From: a virus
Taxonomy: Duplodnaviria; Heunggongvirae; Uroviricota; Caudoviricetes
Length of the DNA: 34,489 nt
Direction: 5' to 3' (one strand)
IMG/VR virus record: IMGVR_UViG_2541047695_000003
Shown here: positions 694-33,072 of the stretch, in pieces
Position numbering within the stretch: position 1 is the stretch's first letter
How the letters are laid out: each line of letters opens with the position of its first letter
Position numbers and translations under genes: made by a program
Notes under the pieces: model-generated
Told to the model about the DNA's origin: nothing
Databases searched by the model: none
Seen by the model: the letters and a program-made list of their open reading frames with translations, nothing else

Positions 694-717
694 GGGACTC
701 TTCGGAGTCCCTTTTTT
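694..717 (+). terminator. Rho-independent terminator (GGGACTC-TTCG-GAGTCCC plus TTTTTT), possibly bidirectional
   Basis: Perfect 7-bp stem with UUCG loop and T6 on + strand; A-rich on the other side; overlaps the stop codon of the minus-strand gene 716-1660. Confidence 0.5.
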
Positions 718-1660
718 ATTGGCAGTAAGAAAAGTTAGTACCGTACATTTCATCATGAAGCATTGCAACATTGCGTTTCTGTTCTTCTTCCTCGTCTACC
801 GCATCACTAGAAAAATGAGATTTGCCCTTAAAAGAACGAAGCAATTGCAGTGCAGCCATCGGATCACGCATCACATCGATTTTCACTTCTACTTCATCAT
901 TTGCGGCCTCATCAGCCGCATTTTCAACTACTGCCACCGGAGCAACTTCTTTAGCTTTCAGTTCTTCAATCTCAGCTTTCTGTGCTTCGATGATCTGGTC
1001 TTTTTCTTTCAGTGCAGCTTTCAGTTCTGCGATCTGTGCTTCCAGTGCAGAGAAACGATCTTCAACAGCAACCGGAGAAACAGCATTAACCTGTGCTTCC
1101 AGTTCTACGAAAGCGTCGCAAGATTCAATACGTGCTTTTTCTTCACCTTCATATGCAACCAGTTCTACTACTTCTTTCTCAGTAGCGTGGCTGTTAAAGA
1201 ATACAGCAAAGTAAGGATTGCCGGATTTGGTGAAGTTCAGTTTAGCTTTTCCGGTAACTTCTTTACGACGACCAAAGGTAATGTTGCAATCAGCGGTATC
1301 CTGAAAATCCATGTTAGGAGCGGAAACGATAGCAGTATCACCAGCAATCACTAGGTGGAACAGTTCAGAAGAGTTCTTAACGGTGAAAGTAACGATGTGG
1401 TCTACTGCAACGTCTTTAGCAGGTTTAACGCGGTCGATTGCTTTACGAATGCCGTTAGGCAGTTTACCGTCAACACCAAAGCCAGCCGCGATCAGTGCTT
1501 CACGATGTGCTTTAAAGCCAGCGAAAGCGGATTTCTGCTGCGCAAAGGAAACATGAGCAACAACTTTCGGCTGAATCTTCTTGTTTGCTTCGGTGCCAAA
1601 TTTGATAACTGCTTTAGCGTTGGTTACTTCGTTAGTGAAAAAGTTAGCGGAAAATAACAT
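716..1660 (-). CDS. Hypothetical early protein (314 aa): globular N-terminal region, central coiled-coil, acidic C-terminal tail
   Basis: Long ORF with diverse composition; AGGAG SD 9 nt upstream of ATG (1660); the + strand overlapping ORFs are low-complexity Phe/Ser-rich artefacts. Function not recognised. Confidence 0.75.
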   Translation of the reverse strand: MLFSANFFTNEVTNAKAVIKFGTEANKKIQPKVVAHVSFAQQKSAFAGFKAHREALIAAGFGVDGKLPNGIRKAIDRVKPAKDVAVDHIVTFTVKNSSELFHLVIAGDTAIVSAPNMDFQDTADCNITFGRRKEVTGKAKLNFTKSGNPYFAVFFNSHATEKEVVELVAYEGEEKARIESCDAFVELEAQVNAVSPVAVEDRFSALEAQIAELKAALKEKDQIIEAQKAEIEELKAKEVAPVAVVENAADEAANDEVEVKIDVMRDPMAALQLLRSFKGKSHFSSDAVDEEEEQKRNVAMLHDEMYGTNFSYCQ

Positions 1661-1704
1661 TATAAATACTCCTGTGGAAAGTTAGTTTTAATTGTTCATT
1701 TCAA

Positions 1705-1742
1705 GCCTCCTTTGCTGCAACAAGGGAGGCTTTTTCTTTTTT
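1705..1742 (+). terminator. Hairpin plus T-run (GCCTCCTTTG...CAAGGGAGGC TTTTTCTTTTTT) between two minus-strand genes
   Basis: 10-bp stem (1 mismatch) followed by T-run on the + strand; on the minus-strand RNA the same hairpin lies in the intergenic leader of gene 716-1660 and contains an AGGAGG sequence. Confidence 0.4.
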
Positions 1743-1774
1743 AAAGCCATCATATAATTCTCAGTGAAAGTGGA

Positions 1775-1954
1775 TTAACAAACTTGAACGTTAATCTTTA
1801 CCTGAATTTCGTATTTCTTCATTAGCTTGTAGAATCCGCTTCTATCAATTCCTTCCTTCTTAAAGAAGTTTTCCCCGCCTCGCTCAGTGTCGCTGTAAAA
1901 GCGTTTAGCAATATCAACAATCATTTCACGAGTGAACTTAACAGGTCTAGCCAT
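1775..1954 (-). CDS. Small HTH DNA-binding protein (59 aa, MARPVKFTREMIVDIAKRFY...GIDRSGFYKLMKKYEI), paralog family A
   Basis: ATG at 1954 (minus) with GAGGA SD 8 nt upstream (the track ORF starts at an upstream TTG, 1969). Shares the RPxxF...DIA...GI...FYKxMKK motif with 5372-5599 and the C-terminus of 5634-6239. Confidence 0.6.
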   Translation of the reverse strand: MARPVKFTREMIVDIAKRFYSDTERGGENFFKKEGIDRSGFYKLMKKYEIQVKINVQVC

Positions 1955-2053
1955 AAGTAGATTCCTCAAATGTGGATTAATAAGGACAATAAAAAGAGCT
2001 TTTCGCCCTCGATACTTCTATTTATAAAAGTCATTTCAGAAAACCCTGCAAAA

Positions 2054-2075
2054 CCACTGTGTATCTGATCAGTGG
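2054..2075. repeat. Inverted-repeat site CCACTG-N10-CAGTGG (operator-like)
   Basis: Perfect 6-bp arms; a near-identical copy lies at 2139-2160; adjacent to a candidate leftward promoter (-35 TTGCAG 2050-2045). Confidence 0.4.
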
Positions 2076-2138
2076 GAGCACGAATTGCTAAAGAGAAGAT
2101 TAATTATTAATCAATTCGTACAATATTCAACCGAAAAA

Positions 2139-2177
2139 GCACTGTATATCTAACCAGTGCTGTATGAATTAGCAGTG
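2139..2177. repeat. Inverted-repeat site GCACTG-N10-CAGTGC followed by a third CAGTG half-site
   Basis: GCACTGTATATCTAACCAGTGC (2139-2160), then CAGTG again at 2173-2177; direct repeat of the 2054-2075 element (CACTGT-TATCT-A-CAGTG core). Confidence 0.4.
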
Positions 2178-2296
2178 AATCAGGAGATTTTCAGAAGTGA
2201 ACAATCATTTCACACATGTATTTATAACGTGGAAATTCTTGCTTATCATCTATATGGGGACTGTTTAGAAAATTTCAACCCCCACCAGTGAGAAAA

Positions 2297-2325
2297 AGTA
2301 TAAAATAATCCTTGACAGTTGTCAA
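2297..2325 (-). promoter_or_regulatory. Candidate sigma70-type promoter reading leftward (-35 TTGACA, 17-bp spacer, -10 TATACT), overlapping palindrome TTGACAGTTGTCAA
   Basis: Minus-strand TTGACA at 2325-2320 and TATACT at 2302-2297 with exact 17-nt spacing; the perfect 14-bp palindrome 2312-2325 could also be an operator. Confidence 0.4.
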
Positions 2326-2519
2326 TGCACTTGACCTAAGCGAGAAATGACTATCAAAATTTTTGTTTGAAAATGGTAGATCAGGATTATCAACCTTTAT
2401 AACCTATTATAGCGCGGAGACCTTTTGACAATTCTTTTTAAATCATTAACTTACGCCACTTTTTGGTGATTTTTTGATTAAATAATATACAAGAATTTTC
2501 TATCAAAATATTTGATGGG

Positions 2520-2770
2520 AATTGCCCCTGAAATTCTGAATTTTTGCCCCCGAATAAAATCCCCAAGATTCTACTATCCCATTTTTGCCCCTGAAACCTA
2601 CTATTTTTGCCCCTGAAATTCTGGGAAACAGTGATTTTGCCCCTCATTTTTGCCCCTGAAATGCCAATAATTGCCCCTGAAAATCTAATTTTTGCCCCTC
2701 ATTTTTGCCCCTGAAAAGGATTGGTGAGAAAAACCCTTTATAAAACATTAACTTAGCGAGGGGCAAAAGC
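2520..2770. repeat. Iteron-like array: ~9 direct copies of (T)TTTTGCCCCTGAAA (core GCCCCTGAAA / GCCCCTCA) plus one inverted copy (GAGGGGCAAAA)
   Basis: Cores at 2524, 2555 (variant GCCCCCGAAT), 2587, 2609, 2639 (GCCCCTCA), 2652, 2673, 2694 (GCCCCTCA), 2707; inverted copy 2759-2769; irregular spacing of roughly 13-32 bp; no spacer regularity, no coding potential. Confidence 0.75.
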
Positions 2771-2859
2771 GGGGGATCGGGCGTGCATAGATATTATATA
2801 ACACATTCGCTACGCTCATGTGTAAAACTAAAAACAACAAATAACCAAAAAGATAATTA

Positions 2860-2878
2860 GGAGGGCGTAGCCCGACTG
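2860..2878. repeat. Direct repeat copy 1: GGAGGGCGTAGCCCGACTG (contains GGGC-N3-GCCC mini-hairpin)
   Basis: 16/19 identical to copy at 3291-3309; the two copies bracket ~430 bp of repeat-rich non-coding DNA. Confidence 0.5.
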
Positions 2879-3055
2879 CGCGAAGCGCTAACCAATTACT
2901 TCTAGTAACAACTAATTTAAACTAGATGATACTAGATGGTCTTAGAAGGAATTAACTAGTTTGCTCGCTCGCTTCGCTCACTCTCAAACGTCTGCGACGC
3001 CACTGCGTGGCATCGAGAATCACTTCTGAAAGGATTTTCTCGAAAGGGATTTAAT

Positions 3056-3142
3056 ACTAGTTACTAACTGATTCTAGAAAGATAGTAATAATCACTTTGA
3101 AGATAATAGTAGTTAACTGGTTACTAGATGATTCTAGATCAC
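3056..3142. repeat. Tandem imperfect repeats of a TTACTA(A/G)(C/A)TGATTCTAGA-containing unit (about 60-bp period); related ACTAGATGATACTAGATGG at 2921-2940
   Basis: TTACTAACTGATTCTAGAAA (3061-3080) vs TTACTAGATGATTCTAGATC (3121-3140), 17/20 identical; each followed by CACTTT(G/A)A. Confidence 0.45.
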
Positions 3143-3167
3143 TTTAATGATCATGAAAGGTATTGGT

Positions 3168-3196
3168 ATCCCTTCGGGATTGCAACCTTCGGTTGC
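3168..3196 (+). other. Two adjacent GC-stem hairpins with TTC(G) loops (ATCCC-TTC-GGGAT; GCAACC-TTC-GGTTGC), no T-run
   Basis: Back-to-back stable stem-loops seen directly in the sequence; not followed by a U-run, so not a canonical terminator. Confidence 0.3.
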
Positions 3197-3290
3197 TAAA
3201 TTGCTTCCTGATTATTATTTCTCCAAAAGAAAGATTATTATATTCTAAAGATACTTCTTCGTTTTGATCATAATTTAATCAAATCATGAA

Positions 3291-3309
3291 GGAGGGCTTT
3301 GCCCGACTG
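3291..3309. repeat. Direct repeat copy 2: GGAGGGCTTTGCCCGACTG
   Basis: See copy 1 at 2860-2878. Confidence 0.5.
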
Positions 3310-3398
3310 AATACAATCACCTTTCATAATAACAAGAATTTTCTCTTTATAAATAATAGTGAACTTACTTGATTCACTTTCTTTTAGAGGATACCACT

Positions 3399-3848
3399 AT
3401 GATCAATACTAAAACTCCTTTCGTACTTCTGGGTCTGGACTCTGAAAACTATGGTAACTTCCATATGCTAGAAGTTTTCGCTCATCGTGGTTATAACATC
3501 ATTCGTCATTCCGAAGACTCCAACTACTCAACTGCTTTCTACGCTTTAAAACGAAATGGTCGTCCTACTGTGATCATCGACTGTTTTACTGATGAGGGTC
3601 GTCTTCAATACAACGATATTCCAGCAATTATTGTTCGTGATGATCTGCCGTTTCAAGTCCGTTCCGGTGACATTGACCTGGGTAGCTTCTTGACTCTTCG
3701 TGAACTGGATGAAGCAATGTTTAATTACGGTAAAGAAACCGCTCAGGAAGCCCCAGAACAAGATGAGGAAGACGAAGACTACGCACCAATCGCTTTCTCT
3801 TCTCACGGTGGCTTCTACGGTTACGACGAAGGCTTAGATATGCTGTAA
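3399..3848 (+). CDS. Hypothetical early protein (149 aa) with strongly acidic C-terminal tail
   Basis: ATG at 3399 (MINTKTPFVLLG...) with GAGGA SD; the track ORF starts 10 codons earlier without an RBS. C-terminus EAPEQDEEDEDYAPIAF... is acidic. Confidence 0.7.
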   Translation: MINTKTPFVLLGLDSENYGNFHMLEVFAHRGYNIIRHSEDSNYSTAFYALKRNGRPTVIIDCFTDEGRLQYNDIPAIIVRDDLPFQVRSGDIDLGSFLTLRELDEAMFNYGKETAQEAPEQDEEDEDYAPIAFSSHGGFYGYDEGLDML

Positions 3849-3883
3849 GTTAGGTCAACCCTTTGGCATCTTGTCAAGGGGTA

Positions 3884-3912
3884 TTGACAAAAATTTCTGA
3901 CTTTTTTATGAT
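3884..3912 (+). promoter_or_regulatory. Candidate sigma70 promoter (-35 TTGACA 3884-3889, 17-bp spacer, -10 TATGAT 3907-3912); -35 embedded in inverted repeat TTGTCAAGGGGTATTGACAA (3871-3890)
   Basis: Consensus -35 and near-consensus -10 with 17-nt spacing about 55 nt upstream of the 3969 start codon; a second TTGACA lies at 3921-3926. Confidence 0.5.
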
Positions 3913-3968
3913 TATCGAACTTGACAACTTTGAACCTATTTGACCTAGATTTGTAAAGAGGATGTAAC

Positions 3969-4301
3969 ATGAAAGAATTTACCATCACTAAATCCCTGTA
4001 TGACTGGACTGTTAAAATCTCCGGCAAAACCGTTTCTGTAACCCCTAGCCATGTAGAAAATGATTGGGGCGTATCCCGTGAAACTATCTCCCGTAGTATG
4101 CATGTTCCGTTTGATCTGATGACCTTAACTGGTATTCATGCAATGCTGGAAGTTCGCGAGCAATTCGAAGCTGGTAATCACAATGCAACTCCAGTTAGCA
4201 ATCACCTTCTTACTAATGAAGAACGTGAAATCATCGAAAACTGGCGTTATGAATATGCGATTCCTTATTATGAAGAAGACCAAGTAGAAATCGATTGGTG
4301 A
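3969..4301 (+). CDS. Hypothetical protein (110 aa)
   Basis: ATG with AGAGGA SD 7 nt upstream; promoter candidate immediately upstream; no recognisable motif. Confidence 0.75.
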   Translation: MKEFTITKSLYDWTVKISGKTVSVTPSHVENDWGVSRETISRSMHVPFDLMTLTGIHAMLEVREQFEAGNHNATPVSNHLLTNEEREIIENWRYEYAIPYYEEDQVEIDW

Positions 4302-4389: not shown

Positions 4390-5196
4390 ATGAATACTGT
4401 TACCGTTATGAATACTGCTAAAACTGCTTCCGTGTCTCTGGTTGTTGATAACACCAAACCGCTGACCATGTCTTCCCGTCAGATCGCTGAATTTACCGGA
4501 AAGAAACACTTTCACGTAAAACGCGACATTCGCGAAATGCTGATTACCTTAGAATTAGATGAATCCAAATTTGGATGCATCTTTTTTGACCAATATGGAC
4601 GCGAGCAAACAGAATATCACTTGAATGAAGAACTGACTCTGACTCTTGTCACTGGTTACAATATCCAGATGCGAAACGCGGTTATTCAGGAATGGAAGCG
4701 ACTGAAAGAAGAAAATGAAAAACTTCGCTCTACTCCGGTTAACCCGTATGCAGACTTTGAAGAAACAGACTGGATCGAACTGGCATTAAAGAAAACTCGC
4801 GAAAATAAAAAGCTGATTGAACTTCATGTTCGCAAATCCGTAGATAGCCATTCAATGACGCGTCTGTTAGGCGCTAAAAAGGGCGCTACGAAGGTTAAAG
4901 AAGCACTGACGGCCTTACGTACTGCTGGATACATCGAGCGCGTCTATGATGAAAATAACAAGCCGTGTGGGTATGTTGCTAATGATTCTTCTCTCTCTTT
5001 CTGCCGCATGAATGCTCACTACCAACTTGAGTTTACTGTTGATGTGCTTCCGGTGCTGGTTGAATTGGGTGTTTTGGAAGAAGAACAAAAAGCAACTCTG
5101 AATCTTCCTAAGCCGAACAACACTATTCTGATTCAAAATAAAGCGGCTGAACGTCTCCGTCAGAATGTTGGATCACTGGAAGTCTTCGGACTGTAA
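4390..5196 (+). CDS. Rha-family phage regulatory protein / antirepressor-like (268 aa)
   Basis: N-terminal SRQIAEFTGKKHFHVKRDIREML matches the conserved Rha-domain signature (HxxVxRDI) as I recall it; AAGGGG SD; followed by a strong terminator. Confidence 0.75.
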   Translation: MNTVTVMNTAKTASVSLVVDNTKPLTMSSRQIAEFTGKKHFHVKRDIREMLITLELDESKFGCIFFDQYGREQTEYHLNEELTLTLVTGYNIQMRNAVIQEWKRLKEENEKLRSTPVNPYADFEETDWIELALKKTRENKKLIELHVRKSVDSHSMTRLLGAKKGATKVKEALTALRTAGYIERVYDENNKPCGYVANDSSLSFCRMNAHYQLEFTVDVLPVLVELGVLEEEQKATLNLPKPNNTILIQNKAAERLRQNVGSLEVFGL

Positions 5197-5202
5197 TTAA
5201 TC

Positions 5203-5236
5203 GCCCGGCGCATAATTGCGCTGGGCTTTTTGTTTT
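5203..5236 (+). terminator. Rho-independent terminator (GCCCGGCGC-ATAATT-GCGCTGGGC plus TTTTTGTTTTT)
   Basis: 9-bp stem with one G-U pair followed by a T-run directly after the 4390-5196 stop. Confidence 0.7.
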
Positions 5237-5371: not shown

Positions 5372-5599
5372 TCAAAAACCTGTTGCTTCTACGATCTGAC
5401 CATCACCGATCTGAACATAGAATTTAATGTCTAACTTCTTCATATTCTTATAGAATTGGGCAATTGAAATCCCATGTTCACTAAGAATCTGTTCTTTCGC
5501 TTCCTTACCACGATCCGCTGTATAATAAGCGTAGGCAATATCAGCCATTTGTTCAGCGTTAAAACGGGCAGGACGACCGCGAGTAGCTTTAGTAGTCAT
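5372..5599 (-). CDS. Small HTH DNA-binding protein (75 aa, MTTKATRGRPARFNAEQMADIAYAY...GISIAQFYKNMKKL), paralog family A; resembles terminase-small-subunit / AlpA-type N-terminal HTH
   Basis: Second in-frame ATG (5599) has GGAGAA SD at 6-nt spacing; the first ATG (5605) abuts the SD. GRP-x-RF...DIA...GIS..FYK.MKK motif shared with 1775-1954. Confidence 0.6.
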   Translation of the reverse strand: MTTKATRGRPARFNAEQMADIAYAYYTADRGKEAKEQILSEHGISIAQFYKNMKKLDIKFYVQIGDGQIVEATGF

Positions 5600-5633
5600 A
5601 GTCATTTCTCCAAATTAAAGTGAATGTTCACTT

Positions 5634-6239
5634 TTATTTAGAGGACTTACATTTTATCGGAAAAAGTTCTCCATCGTCAATACTCATAAAGAACTCTGCC
5701 TTAATCCCGTACTTCTTCAACCGTGAATAGTATGTACCCCGACTTATATCAACCTTGCGCAGCACTTCAAAGAACCCTTTAGGATCGTTGTAATAGTGGC
5801 TGTATCGCACGTTAGCGAGTTCTACAAACAATTCCCTTGTATCACCATAGCCTTTCTTGAAAGCCTCGTTACGATAGCGTGTAATAGCGTGATTCAATCT
5901 CTTCTGTTTCAACACTTCTCGGATCGGCTTCCACTGCAACCTATAGATAGGACCGTCATCAATGCGATAATAACGCTTGATATCAAAATCAAACCAATCT
6001 CGGACTCGCTGAAACTCTGTCTGTGAGGTGCGATACTTCTTAAAGAAGTTATGAATATCGGTATACCCATGATCACGATACAACTCGATTAAAATCTGTT
6101 TAGCTTCCTCACGACTAAAGCCAGATGTTGTGTAATCAGTCTTCTTGTGATGGTGCTTAACTGGCAAACGATATTCATGATCGGTACAACAAGAAAAGGC
6201 TAATTCTACTTCATCTCTTTGTTGCTGATTAATTAGCAT
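5634..6239 (-). CDS. Hypothetical protein (201 aa) with C-terminal HTH-like segment ([16 protein letters not shown]) related to paralog family A
   Basis: AGGGGG SD 5 nt upstream of ATG 6239; divergent from the terminase gene; function unknown. Confidence 0.7.
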
Positions 6240-31343: not shown

Positions 31344-33023
31344 TTAAATTCCAAATTCCTGTAATGGACCTGGTATTTCCTCTTCTGGTTTCCAGTTCTT
31401 ATCTGTCAGCATGTCTAAACATGGATGCAGAACAAGCCCGTTGCTCTCCAGAATCTGCCTATCATTGATAGTTTTCAAATCAATGAATATCCGGCCTTTC
31501 CTCGTTCCTCTTGAATTTTCTATTACAACTCTCTGGGTCTTTCCATCGATGTATTCCAGCACAAACAAGTTTTTATTTCTGTCAATCCTGCTACACCCGA
31601 TCCGCTTTAGAGCTTGCTTAATCTTAAACCGGACCTTTAGTCGTTCCTCGTTATAAACATCTTCTAAATCAAATTCTGCGAGCTTCTCCCAGCCTTGAGA
31701 GTCCACAGAATACATTTCCTCTTCTGCCATCTTGATCTGATTGTAGAGTGTTTCACGCTCGCTATTGAGGGTAGTAATCTGATCGGCTAGCTCCTTCGTT
31801 GCTCCTGTCATAGCAGAAAGGGCAATCAGGTTATCAATCTTGCGTGATATTTCATCAACCTGTACTTTCAACGCCGGAACCGGATTAGCCTTGTCCTCAG
31901 CAATCCATATTTTATCAGCCAGCAATTGCAATACAGCTTTCTCTAATTGATCACCTCGAAAACTCCAGTTTGGATGCTCGCAATCAAGTCTACGTGAACG
32001 GGTCGCATCACATGTATAACGATACTGGTCAGAACGTTTGTTCGTTCCCTTCACTTTAACCATAGCGCAACCGCAATGATCACATTTCAATAGGCCAATA
32101 CCACTAAGCAGGGGGATCGGTTTAACTTCTTCCTTGTCTCCAAAGTTCCATGCTCTAGCACCAATATTTTTCTTAAGGTGATAGAACGTAGCATCATCAA
32201 TAACACGAGGGTAATAATCCTTTAACTCATAGTTAACACCATCTACAGAGACTTCCTTGATACCAATCAAAGCGCGGGTATGGAACAACCTTTCAACCAT
32301 TGCCCGTGACCATTTTGAATGCTTCTTGTTGCTTACTGCTGGTGGCGGTGTATATGTCTCGTTAAGGTGATCCAGTATCTCGGCGGTTGAACGTCCATTC
32401 TTCCGTAATTCCACAATCTCCTGAACAACAGGGAAGTATGTAGGATGAGGCAACACATAACCGGAAGTGGTATCCGTCCACCACATATTCTTTCCAACTT
32501 CCTCGATTGCCACTGCCGGATTCTGGGGATTTTCTTGATGGGCTTTAATCTTAATCAGTGCGCTTGAGTTAGTACGATTGCGCTTAGTCTGGCTTTCCTC
32601 ATTACCACGGATGAATAAAAGGATGGAGAACATCAGGTCCATCGGGTTAGCGGTAACAGTATCCAGCGAGTAGATCTTGTTATCCATGCCAGTAACAATG
32701 GTTATTCCCCTACGGATGATTGAAAGGAATAACTCCTGCGCACTGACAATATCGGCACGGGATAAGCGGTCCAAGTTTTCAATGAATAGCCAGCTACCAA
32801 CAGGAACGGATCTACCAATTGCATCAAGGAAACGAGATAGCGCCCCTGTTTTAGAGTTAGCACCCTTAAACGCAGATACACCCAGATCCTGATAATCATT
32901 TACCAGTTCAAGGTCATACTTTGCCGCAACCTCTCTCGCCATCCTGATTTGTCGTTCATAACTCGAACCATCATTCTGACGCATAGACGAGAAGCGAATA
33001 TACGAATACAGTTTAGTTTTCAT
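31344..33023 (-). CDS. Large serine recombinase (serine integrase, 559 aa)
   Basis: N-terminus MKTKLYSYIRFSS...Q with catalytic-Ser resolvase-type domain, then a recombinase domain, Cys cluster (CDHCGC...C-x-A...CEH) and C-terminal coiled-coil, the architecture of phiC31/Bxb1-type integrases. Start taken at ATG 33023 rather than the upstream TTG 33038 of the track. Confidence 0.9.
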   Translation of the reverse strand: MKTKLYSYIRFSSMRQNDGSSYERQIRMAREVAAKYDLELVNDYQDLGVSAFKGANSKTGALSRFLDAIGRSVPVGSWLFIENLDRLSRADIVSAQELFLSIIRRGITIVTGMDNKIYSLDTVTANPMDLMFSILLFIRGNEESQTKRNRTNSSALIKIKAHQENPQNPAVAIEEVGKNMWWTDTTSGYVLPHPTYFPVVQEIVELRKNGRSTAEILDHLNETYTPPPAVSNKKHSKWSRAMVERLFHTRALIGIKEVSVDGVNYELKDYYPRVIDDATFYHLKKNIGARAWNFGDKEEVKPIPLLSGIGLLKCDHCGCAMVKVKGTNKRSDQYRYTCDATRSRRLDCEHPNWSFRGDQLEKAVLQLLADKIWIAEDKANPVPALKVQVDEISRKIDNLIALSAMTGATKELADQITTLNSERETLYNQIKMAEEEMYSVDSQGWEKLAEFDLEDVYNEERLKVRFKIKQALKRIGCSRIDRNKNLFVLEYIDGKTQRVVIENSRGTRKGRIFIDLKTINDRQILESNGLVLHPCLDMLTDKNWKPEEEIPGPLQEFGI

Positions 33024-33030
33024 ACCATTT

Positions 33031-33072
33031 CCAAACAAAAACGCCCCTACCGCGTATTATAACGATAGGGGC
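33031..33072 (-). terminator. Hairpin GCCCCTA...TAGGGGC followed by U-rich tract on minus strand
   Basis: 7-bp stem with 16-nt loop; minus-strand downstream GTTTTTGTTTGG; sits between 33087-33506 and the recombinase start and overlaps the alternative TTG start. Confidence 0.4.

What the first reader, a model, noticed from the sequence alone, without database searches (positions are those of the whole stretch)
2312..3890. TTGACA/TGTCAA palindromes embedded in the -35 elements of divergent early promoters
Both early promoter candidates carry their -35 hexamer inside a perfect inverted repeat: TTGACAGTTGTCAA (2312-2325, leftward) and TTGTCAAGGGGTATTGACAA (3871-3890, rightward). A shared palindromic half-site TTGACA(A) overlapping -35 would let one regulator control both divergent early units, a repressor/operator-like arrangement in a window that contains no obvious CI-like repressor gene.
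Basis: partly seen in the sequence, partly recalled or inferred. Interest (0 to 1): 0.5.

Follow-up and report, generated by a model that had tools for sequence, protein, structure and literature searches.

The report
Conserved TTGACA boxes around prophage promoters
Two strong promoter-like sites in an uncharacterised E. coli prophage each sit beside a conserved, oppositely oriented copy of their own -35 sequence, and these copies belong to a repeated 27-bp two-box motif that most likely serves as a regulator-binding site, although no binding has been tested.

Summary
TTGACAgtTGTCAA (2312-2325) and TTGTCAAggggtaTTGACAA (3871-3890) are at the stated coordinates. Each contains the -35 hexamer of one of the only two intergenic 11/12 sigma-70-type sites in the window. 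Two such palindromes arose in 1 of 600 simulations.

The window is nearly a whole ~35-kb prophage inserted in ycdX. Relatives occur in about 60 of 5426 complete E. coli genomes, and in Salmonella and Proteus.

- The two palindromes differ in geometry: a 2-nt versus a 6-nt spacer, and opposite arm order. One symmetric dimer cannot read both the same way.
- The shared unit is a bipartite motif, TTGACA-N13-TTGACCTA. It has exactly three perfect copies: 2312-2338 (+), 3877-3851 (-) and 3921-3947 (+).
- Across relatives the boxes stay invariant while the spacers drift (Fisher p = 2e-6).
- The right-hand set is present in every E. coli and Salmonella relative that retains the intergenic region; one deletion derivative (L011) and the Proteus relative lack it.
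- The left palindrome is missing from relatives with alternative left arms, so co-regulation of the two promoters is not obligatory.

Best reading, confidence about 0.4: operator-like boxes for a phage-encoded regulator, possibly the tandem-HTH 201-aa protein. The main rival is RNA-polymerase-binding pseudo-promoters, because the geometry also fits -35 plus an extended -10 TG. No regulator is shown.

The parts
2320..2325 (-). -35 hexamer TTGACA of the leftward promoter-like site (P_left)
   Evidence: TTGACA-17-TATACT, 11/12. Nearly invariant in 23 distinct relatives. The promoter is kept in Salmonella (-10 TAAGAT, TATAAT or TATACT) and in Proteus (TAAAAT).
2297..2302 (-). -10 hexamer TATACT of P_left; inferred start near 2290
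   Evidence: One variable column (TATGCT in 13% of sequences).
2312..2325 (.). Palindrome A, TTGACA gt TGTCAA: the -35 of P_left plus an inverted partner box lying inside the promoter spacer
   Evidence: The partner TTGACA (2312-2317) is invariant in 23 distinct sequences, while the 2-nt spacer varies (GT, GA, CT, CA, AA).
2312..2338 (+). Bipartite element A: TTGACA-N13-TTGACCTA
   Evidence: one of exactly three perfect copies. Box 2 is less constrained here (TTGACCTA, TTGATCTA, ATGATCTA, ATGACCTA, TTGACCCA).
3851..3877 (-). Bipartite element B1 (TTGACAA-N12-TTGACCTA read on the minus strand), upstream of P_right at about -68 to -42
   Evidence: perfect or one mismatch in every E. coli/IMG relative that retains the intergenic region (absent from the deletion derivative L011). 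The spacer varies.
3871..3890 (.). Palindrome B, TTGTCAA ggggta TTGACAA: box 1 of B1 plus the -35 of P_right
   Evidence: TGTCAA-N6/7-TTGACA is kept in all five Salmonella relatives and is the RNAalifold consensus, with 6 pairs and no compensatory changes.
3884..3912 (+). P_right core: -35 TTGACA (3884-3889), 17-nt spacer, -10 TATGAT (3907-3912); inferred start near 3919
   Evidence: 11/12. The -10 is invariant in 32 distinct sequences, and the -35 has one variant in each of two columns. It is followed by an SD and ATG at 3969, then the Rha-family gene and a strong terminator at 5203-5226.
3921..3947 (+). Bipartite element B2 at about +2 to +28 of P_right, inverted relative to B1
   Evidence: The boxes are invariant while the 12-nt spacer takes at least 10 different forms. 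The first box, TTGACA(A/T), is kept in all Salmonella relatives.
1775..1954 (-). 59-aa HTH protein, first gene downstream of P_left; candidate regulator
   Evidence: Paralog of the 74-aa protein (E = 7e-10) and of both halves of the 201-aa protein.
5634..6239 (-). 201-aa protein with two tandem HTH-plus-beta modules; candidate reader of the two-box element (inferred only)

Best explanation
The two palindromes are by-products of a larger regulatory design. Each strong sigma-70 promoter (P_left, reading left from about 2290; P_right, reading right from about 3919) has, next to its own -35 hexamer, an oppositely oriented copy of an asymmetric two-box element: CTTGACA, 13 nt, then TTGACCTA.

There are three copies:
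- A straddles the -35 of P_left, with boxes at about -27/-22 and -48/-41.
- B1 lies just upstream of the -35 of P_right.
- B2 lies at +2 to +28 of P_right, inverted relative to B1. B1 and B2 therefore bracket the core promoter symmetrically.

I infer that these are operator-like sites for a sequence-specific DNA-binding protein encoded by the phage. The most economical candidate is a protein with two DNA-reading modules in one chain, such as the 201-aa tandem-HTH protein. Alternatively, its 59-aa or 74-aa paralogs could act in tandem. Because box 1 mimics the -35 hexamer, such a protein would compete with sigma-70 region 4.

Binding at A would occlude P_left. Binding at B1 plus B2 would clamp or roadblock P_right, which drives a swappable small gene and the Rha-family gene.

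Shown: the sequences, their non-randomness, their conservation, and the existence of tandem-HTH paralogs. Inferred: that the sites are promoters, that a protein binds the boxes, which protein it is, and the sign of regulation.
For: - There are exactly three perfect copies of the 14-specified-base motif and no other site with two mismatches or fewer.
- The three spacers are unrelated in sequence, so the copies were not made by simple duplication.
- In 32 distinct relatives, 6 of 43 box columns of region 3849-3968 vary, against 45 of 77 non-box columns (Fisher p = 2.3e-6).
- B1 and B2 are perfect or have one mismatch in every E. coli/IMG locus that retains the intergenic region, although the downstream gene is swapped among three unrelated families.
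- Partner box 2312-2317 is invariant although it lies in a promoter spacer, where sigma-70 needs no specific sequence.
- The palindromes are retained in Salmonella relatives whose 201-aa homologue (the protein used to retrieve them) is 52-73% identical to the window's.
- All eight positions of TTGACCTA are constrained in B1 and B2, which is more than an extended -10 TG would need.
- HTH paralogy and a tandem-module model are supported.
- There is a precedent for a monomeric repressor with two DNA-binding domains on asymmetric sites in promoters (PMC9283540).
Against: - There is no binding or expression data.
- Box 2 is not conserved in sequence between E. coli (TTGACCTA) and most Salmonella relatives (GTGATTAG, TGATTTGA), and it varies at site A. 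Only TG(A/C) at a fixed distance is universal, and that is exactly where an extended -10 TG would lie.
- In Salmonella, site A is followed by TATAAG, TATATG or TAGAAG, which looks like a true rightward promoter rather than an operator.
- Relatives with alternative left arms lack site A entirely.
- The 74-aa paralog is absent from two Salmonella relatives that keep the palindrome and the +2 TTGACA box, so it is dispensable.
- The conservation test uses related sequences, and the boxes were defined on the reference.
Confidence: 0.4

Rival explanations
1. The partner boxes are RNA-polymerase binding sites: divergent or tandem promoter-like elements consisting of a -35 TTGACA plus an extended -10 TG. 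Each strong promoter would then be paired back to back with a weak, activator-dependent or non-productive promoter (A rightward, B1 leftward and antisense to the 149-aa ORF, B2 in tandem). Regulation would work by polymerase competition or trapping rather than by a repressor.
For: - In all three copies, and in Salmonella, the common denominator is TTGACA-N14(13)-TG(A/C). That is the exact geometry of a -35 and a TGn motif with a 17(16)-nt spacer.
- In four Salmonella relatives, site A continues with TATAAG, TATATG, TAGAAG or TAGGAG, which are plausible -10 hexamers.
Against: - In E. coli the hexamer is CCTAAG, CCTAAC, CCTAGA or TCTAAG. These lack the essential -11 A and -7 T, yet the sequence is strictly conserved.
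- Conservation covers all 8 bases of TTGACCTA, not only TG.
- TTGACA-N14-TGA alone is only mildly unusual (3 or more copies in 1.8% of simulations).
- No alternative sigma or appropriator was found.
Confidence: 0.27
2. Palindrome B is mainly the DNA image of an RNA hairpin at the 3' end of the 149-aa ORF message, acting as a terminator or stabiliser. That hairpin happens to abut a consensus -35, and palindrome A is a separate feature.
For: - RNA 3854-3888 folds with -19 kcal/mol, z = -4.1.
- A GC-rich hairpin at this place is also present in Salmonella relatives, with different loops (CCCCC TGTCAA GGGGG).
- Several E. coli variants are transitions that keep wobble pairing.
Against: - No U tract follows the stem, and the site is not in the terminator scan.
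- There are no compensatory double changes, and the score is no better than shuffles.
- Several relatives break stem pairs (GGTG, GGTA, GGAG).
- TGTCAA is invariant even where it is in the loop (L040, L046).
- This explanation does not account for sites A and B2.
Confidence: 0.1
3. Palindrome A is a site for a host CRP/FNR-family regulator (TTGAC-N4-GTCAA fits the FNR/FixK core TTGA-N6-TCAA, recalled from memory), giving oxygen- or metabolite-dependent control. The right-hand boxes would be unrelated.
For: Across relatives the pattern at A is 5-nt arms TTGAC/GTCAA with a variable 4-nt centre (AGTT, AGAT, ACTT, ACAT, AGAA, ACCT, AGGA).
Against: - The centre lies at about -28.5 of P_left, and no rightward -10 is at the class II distance (sequence reading).
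- The fifth base is C/G rather than T/A.
- Palindrome B has the reverse arm order and cannot be such a site.
Confidence: 0.07
4. There is no dedicated function. The inverted hexamers are chance or hitch-hiking features in a generally well conserved regulatory region.
For: - The overall identity of the region among relatives is high (about 90-97%), so invariance is partly inherited.
- TTGACA is not enriched window-wide.
Against: - Two palindromes arose in 1 of 600 simulations.
- There are three perfect 14-base motif copies with unrelated spacers.
- There is a box versus spacer contrast in substitutions.
- The features are retained in Salmonella relatives with diverged flanks.
Confidence: 0.06

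Closest known systems
Mycobacteriophage L5/TipsytheTRex (cluster A) immunity repressor and its asymmetric operator/stoperator sites (PMC9283540)
   Same: Both have an asymmetric, oriented site repeated in the genome and present at an early promoter. In L5 a single chain with two DNA-binding domains reads the site, and here there is a candidate two-module HTH protein. The L5 consensus as I recall it (GGTGGMTGTCAAG, from memory) also contains the complement of a -35-like TTGACA.
Lambda/434/P22-type operators: palindromes overlapping -35 or -10, read by a dimeric CI or Cro
   Same: Inverted repeats overlap the -35 of early promoters in a temperate phage.
   Different: The two palindromes differ in spacing and polarity. 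There are no tandem OR1-3-like arrays. No CI/Cro-like gene pair lies between divergent promoters. The promoters are 1.6 kb apart.
P2 C repressor operator: two direct repeats flanking part of the early promoter (recalled from memory)
   Same: The direct-repeat half-sites (TTGAC ... TTGAC, 19 bp apart) straddle a core promoter element at site A.
   Different: There is no homologue of P2 C, and the spacing is different (P2's is about 22 bp, from memory). Here there are in addition two inverted copies bracketing the second promoter.
P22 immI region: P_ant driving a small regulator gene followed by the antirepressor gene (recalled from memory)
   Same: A strong promoter is followed by a small ORF and then an Ant/Rha-family gene, with operators overlapping the promoter.
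   Different: The small ORF here is swapped among three unrelated families while the boxes stay constant, so it is unlikely to be the operator-specific repressor. No Arc/Mnt-like protein was detected.
Overlapping non-productive promoter-like sites that compete with a real promoter, such as lac P2 versus P1 (recalled from memory)
   Same: -35-like and TG motifs are placed at promoter geometry next to a functional promoter.
   Different: Here the elements are on the opposite strand or downstream, are repeated three times, and are conserved over 8 extra bases.

Membership tests
Sigma-70-type promoter | -35 and -10 hexamers close to consensus, with A at -11 and T at -7 and a 17 +/- 1 nt spacer | tested here: met
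   Both sites score 11/12 with a 17-nt spacer.
Sigma-70-type promoter | Intergenic position upstream of a gene on the same strand, conserved in relatives | tested here: met
   P_right lies 50 nt upstream of ATG 3969. P_left lies upstream of the 59-aa gene, after a 335-nt leader. The hexamers are conserved in E. coli, Salmonella and Proteus relatives.
Sigma-70-type promoter | Mapped transcription start | not testable with these tools
   No RNA data are available.
Palindromic operator of a dimeric phage repressor (lambda/434/P22 type) | The same half-site spacing and polarity at all operators of one repressor | tested here: not met
   TTGACA-2-TGTCAA versus TGTCAA-6/7-TTGACA.
Palindromic operator of a dimeric phage repressor (lambda/434/P22 type) | A CI/Cro-like repressor gene in the element | tested here: not met
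   Pfam, PHROGs and NCBIfam scans of most ORFs of at least 100 aa and most small ORFs in the two arms found only a Rha-family protein. Several small ORFs, mainly in the tail and lysis region, were not scanned.
Asymmetric operator read by a two-domain monomer (cluster A mycobacteriophage type) | An asymmetric site repeated with a fixed internal geometry | tested here: met
   Three perfect copies of TTGACA-N13-TTGACCTA, with no other site at two mismatches or fewer.
Asymmetric operator read by a two-domain monomer (cluster A mycobacteriophage type) | Many sites across the genome, oriented with transcription (stoperators) | tested here: not met
   There are only three sites, all at the two promoters.
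Asymmetric operator read by a two-domain monomer (cluster A mycobacteriophage type) | A repressor with two DNA-binding domains, homologous to gp71 | tested here: inconclusive
FNR/CRP-type site (for palindrome A) | TTGAT-N4-ATCAA-like dyad centred near -41.5 or -61.5 of a dependent promoter | tested here: not met
   The core TTGA-N6-TCAA is present, but the centre is at about -28.5 of P_left and there is no suitably spaced rightward -10 (consensus recalled from memory).
Intrinsic terminator (for palindrome B) | A GC-rich hairpin followed by a U tract, with covariation in the stem | tested here: not met
   A hairpin is predicted, but there is no U tract and no compensatory changes.

The most novel reading that the evidence does not exclude
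This prophage family, found in E. coli, Salmonella and Proteus and mostly inserted in ycdX, has no CI-type repressor. It may run its lysis-lysogeny decision with an undescribed circuit made of three parts:
- -35-mimicking two-box operators read by a tandem-HTH protein of a family with no annotated relatives;
- direct host LexA control of the left arm;
- a structured, roughly 300-nt terminated leader RNA from P_left.

All three lie next to a lineage-specific iteron origin.
Probability: 0.15. Interest if true: 0.7.

Novelty: new variant of a known kind. Interest (0 to 1): 0.4.

Why it matters
Operators that overlap early promoters are classical. Here the repeated unit is an asymmetric two-box element that copies the -35 hexamer itself. 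It sits in a widespread but unstudied enterobacterial prophage family whose regulatory and replication genes are all unannotated.

If the boxes are bound by the tandem-HTH protein, that would define a new phage regulator family and its code. It would also give an entry point to how a prophage without a recognisable repressor maintains lysogeny. Either outcome can be tested with simple footprints and reporter fusions.

Tried and rejected
- **Rfam.** Nothing was found in the window at gathering thresholds, and nothing credible in 1600-4100 at a permissive E-value.
- **tRNA.** None found.
- **Close relatives.** None among isolated phages (the best TerL identity is 43%, in a probably chimeric record) and none among plasmids.
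- **Genome-contig scan with the 149-aa protein.** It found nothing.
- **Protein families.** The 59-, 74-, 110-, 149-, 201- and 314-aa proteins have no Pfam, PHROG, NCBIfam or PDB sequence match.
- **149-aa protein as repressor.** Its model is an alpha/beta P-loop-like or flavodoxin-like fold with a disordered acidic tail and no obvious DNA-binding domain.
- **Invertible promoter.** Rejected, because only 43 bp separate the inverted elements B1 and B2.
- **MerR-type control of a 19-nt-spacer promoter.** Considered because TAAGCG, TAACTT and TAGATT lie 19 nt after the partner TTGACA. Rejected, because two of the three spacers have no dyad and there is no MerR-like protein.
- **Other readers checked by eye against remembered consensus sequences.** Sigma-32, sigma-E, sigma-28, IHF, CusR, PhoB and FadR do not fit.
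- **Co-variation of box 2 with the regulator.** Box-2 type tracks overall divergence only, and L044 mixes two types.
- **Large RNA hairpin in region B.** No covariation.
- **Literature search for a prophage in ycdX.** It returned nothing relevant.
Full report
**What the window is**

The 34.5-kb window is almost a complete prophage. A 94-96% identical copy in E. coli GN4741 is bounded by the two halves of ycdX and spans about 35.3 kb. Relatives are present in 58-63 of 5426 complete E. coli genomes, in 21 IMG/VR contigs, and in Salmonella enterica and Proteus columbae. There is no close relative among isolated phages or plasmids.

Gene order around the finding:

| Coordinates | Strand | Feature |
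|---|---|---|
| 716-1660 | - | 314-aa ORF |
| 1775-1954 | - | 59-aa HTH ORF |
| about 1955-3398 | | 1.4-kb non-coding stretch |
| 3399-3848 | + | 149-aa ORF |
| 3969-4301 | + | 110-aa ORF |
| 4390-5196 | + | Rha-family gene |
| 5372-5605 and 5634-6239 | - | two HTH ORFs |
| from 6327 | + | gpA-type terminase, lambda-type portal, protease-capsid fusion, tail and lysis genes |
| 31344-33038 | - | large serine recombinase |

No CI/Cro-like protein and no recognisable replication protein was detected in the ORFs scanned. The scans covered most ORFs of at least 100 aa and most small ORFs in the two arms. Several small ORFs, mainly in the tail and lysis region, were not scanned.

**Checking the observation**

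Both palindromes are exactly as reported.
- TTGACA gt TGTCAA lies at 2312-2325.
- TTGTCAA ggggta TTGACAA lies at 3871-3890.

Each includes the -35 hexamer of an 11/12 sigma-70-type site with an optimal 17-nt spacer. On the minus strand this is TTGACA(2325-2320)-17-TATACT, and on the plus strand TTGACA(3884-3889)-17-TATGAT. Only three 11/12 sites exist in the entire window. The third lies antisense within a tail-fibre gene.

TTGACA is not over-represented overall. However, two TTGACA/TGTCAA pairs within 8 nt were seen in only 1 of 600 Markov-1 simulations, against a mean of 0.073.

- The arm order is opposite at the two sites.
- The promoters are not adjacent divergent promoters. They are 1.6 kb apart, separated by an iteron array and the 149-aa ORF.

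**What the palindromes are part of**

The inverted partner of each -35 hexamer is box 1 of a longer asymmetric motif, TTGACA-N13-TTGACCTA. The motif occurs exactly three times with no mismatch:
- A, at 2312-2338 (+);
- B1, at 3877-3851 (-);
- B2, at 3921-3947 (+).

No other site in the window has two mismatches or fewer. The three 13-nt centres are unrelated, so these are not simple duplications.

Relative to the inferred starts, A straddles the -35 of P_left, with box 1 inside the promoter spacer. B1 lies at about -68 to -42 of P_right and B2 at about +2 to +28. B1 and B2 are inverted with respect to each other and bracket the core promoter symmetrically around position 3899.

The partner boxes read CTTGACA. 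The true -35 hexamers read ATTGACAA (direct reading).

**Conservation**

*Region B.* In 32 distinct sequences of region 3849-3968, 6 of 43 box columns vary, against 45 of 77 other columns (Fisher p = 2.3e-6). This test uses related sequences, and the boxes were defined on the reference. B1 and B2 are perfect or have one mismatch in every E. coli/IMG locus that retains the intergenic region. One deletion derivative, L011, has lost region B. The B2 spacer takes many forms, and the gene downstream is swapped among three unrelated families of 110 aa, 48-50 aa and 59 aa.

*Region A.* The partner box 2312-2317 is invariant in 23 distinct sequences and TGTCAA has one change. The 2-nt spacer varies (GT, GA, CT, CA, AA), and box 2 varies (TTGACCTA, TTGATCTA, ATGATCTA and others).

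*Salmonella relatives* (201-aa homologue 52-73% identical to the window's).
- Palindrome A is exact in three, has one mismatch in one, and is lost in one.
- Palindrome B (TGTCAA-N6/7-TTGACA) and the TTGACA at +2 are kept in all five.

*Relatives that lack palindrome A.* E. coli relatives with alternative left arms (for example L012-L016 and L041) lack it. L016, L015 and L041 instead carry tandem leftward TTGACA-17-TATACT and TTGACA-17-TATAAT (or TATAAC) promoters. The Proteus relative keeps P_left (TTGACA-17-TAAAAT) with a degenerate partner (TTGCTT), and it has no P_right.

The two promoters, however, are not an obligatory co-regulated pair.

**Mechanism**

Two readings fit the anatomy.

*(i) Operator-like sites for a phage protein (preferred, about 0.4).*
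- All eight bases of TTGACCTA are constrained in B1 and B2.
- The partner box in the P_left spacer is invariant.
- B1 and B2 clamp the promoter symmetrically.
- The element encodes four copies of a small HTH-plus-beta module in three proteins. The 59-aa and 74-aa proteins match at E = 7e-10, and the 59-aa protein matches the 201-aa protein twice.
- The AlphaFold model of the 201-aa protein shows two three-helix modules with pLDDT of about 81-92 within the modules.
- A single chain with two reading heads on an asymmetric site has a structural precedent (PMC9283540).

- The universal feature of all partner boxes, including those in Salmonella, is TTGACA-N14(13)-TG. That is the geometry of a -35 plus an extended -10 TG.
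- In Salmonella, site A continues with TATAAG, TATATG or TAGAAG.
- Against this, the E. coli hexamers (CCTAAG, CCTAAC, CCTAGA) lack -11 A and -7 T and yet are strictly conserved.

*Minor rivals.*
- An RNA hairpin at the end of the 149-aa ORF message. It is predicted at -19 kcal/mol with z = -4.1, but it has no U tract and no covariation.
- A host FNR-type site at A, for which the position is wrong and which B cannot fit.
- Chance.

**Other features of the interval**

The stretch between the two promoters is unusual in its own right.
- It holds nine direct iterons, TTTTGCCCCTGAAA, at 2520-2716 with mostly 21-22-nt spacing, plus an inverted copy near 2758-2775.
- Different lineages carry different iteron sequences at the same place: CCTACACTA, ATCCCTAGC, TTTTGTCCGTGA, TTATAGGACA.
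- The leader between P_left and the 59-aa gene contains a strong LexA-box-like site at 2140-2159 (19.7 bits on a matrix built from SOS boxes recalled from memory; the best of 30 shuffles scored 17.8). Weaker neighbours lie at 2158-2177 and 2055-2074.
- Such boxes accompany all but two of the loci that have palindrome A and are absent from every alternative left arm.
- The Salmonella relative L040 has a consensus box, TACTGTATATTCATACAGTA.
- The leader RNA is predicted to be structured (z = -3.95). It ends in a terminator-like hairpin at 2010-1994 (-) just before the 59-aa gene's ribosome-binding site.

**Verdict**

The repressor/operator reading is plausible, but it must be recast from a shared palindromic half-site to a repeated asymmetric two-box element, and it competes with an RNA-polymerase-decoy reading.

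In kind, this is a variant of the classical theme of operators overlapping early promoters, found in an unstudied prophage family. Interest is moderate at 0.4. It would be higher if the tandem-HTH, LexA and leader-RNA circuit proves real.

Noticed in passing
window 2140-2159 (also 2158-2177 and 2055-2074): LexA-box-like sites lie in the leader between P_left and the 59-aa HTH gene. CACTGTATATCTAACCAGTG scores 19.7 bits on a matrix built from remembered E. coli SOS boxes, above the best of 30 shuffles. They co-occur with the palindrome-A type of left arm in relatives and are absent from alternative arms. Salmonella relative L040 has a consensus box. This suggests direct SOS control in a prophage without a CI-like repressor.
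   Followed up: partly
window 2520-2716 (inverted copy about 2758-2775): Nine direct iterons TTTTGCCCCTGAAA lie mostly at 21-22-nt spacing. Related prophages carry different iteron sequences at the same position: CCTACACTA, ATCCCTAGC, TTTTGTCCGTGA, TTATAGGACA, CTTGGAAGATTCCAC. This looks like a replication origin, or possibly a packaging-protein array, with lineage-specific specificity. No Rep-like protein was recognised. The variable 314-aa coiled-coil protein (716-1660, minus strand) is a candidate.
   Followed up: partly
window 1975-2292, minus strand: The roughly 318-nt transcript predicted from P_left is strongly structured (z = -3.95). It ends in a terminator-like hairpin plus U run at 2010-1994 immediately before the ribosome-binding site of the 59-aa gene. 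Similar hairpin-forming sequences, with different stems, are visible at this position in all relatives, including Proteus. It could be an attenuator or a terminated regulatory RNA.
   Followed up: partly
window 2750-3398: There is about 650 nt without a convincing ORF but with RNA-like features: two UUCG-loop hairpins at about 3168-3200, repeats AGGAGGGCnTnGCCCGACTG at 2859 and 3290, a 29-nt imperfect inverted repeat at 3150-3178 / 3302-3330, and ACTAGATGAT-type repeats. There is no Rfam match.
   Followed up: no
window 1775-1954 (-), 5372-5605 (-), 5634-6239 (-): Three paralogous proteins are built from a small HTH-plus-beta-strand module, with two copies in the 201-aa protein. They have no Pfam, PHROG, NCBIfam or PDB sequence match, and homologues were found only in this prophage family in E. 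coli, Salmonella and Proteus.
   Followed up: partly
window 3969-4301 and equivalents in L004, L008, L010: The first gene after P_right is exchanged among three unrelated families (110 aa, 48-50 aa, 59 aa). The recombination break lies within a few bases of the start codon, while the upstream regulatory region stays constant.
   Followed up: yes
window 1703-1784: A 75-nt stretch including a strong hairpin terminator matches RB49-like T-even phages (Krischvirus) at about 84% identity, in unannotated regions of those genomes.
   Followed up: no
L002 18442-18993 (just left of the window start) and L039/L042 ends: A 183-aa ORF at the prophage's left end has a faint Nu1 (small terminase) similarity (E = 0.017). 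It lies far from the gpA-type large terminase gene. The prophage also interrupts a PHP-domain (ycdX-like) gene in Proteus.
   Followed up: no
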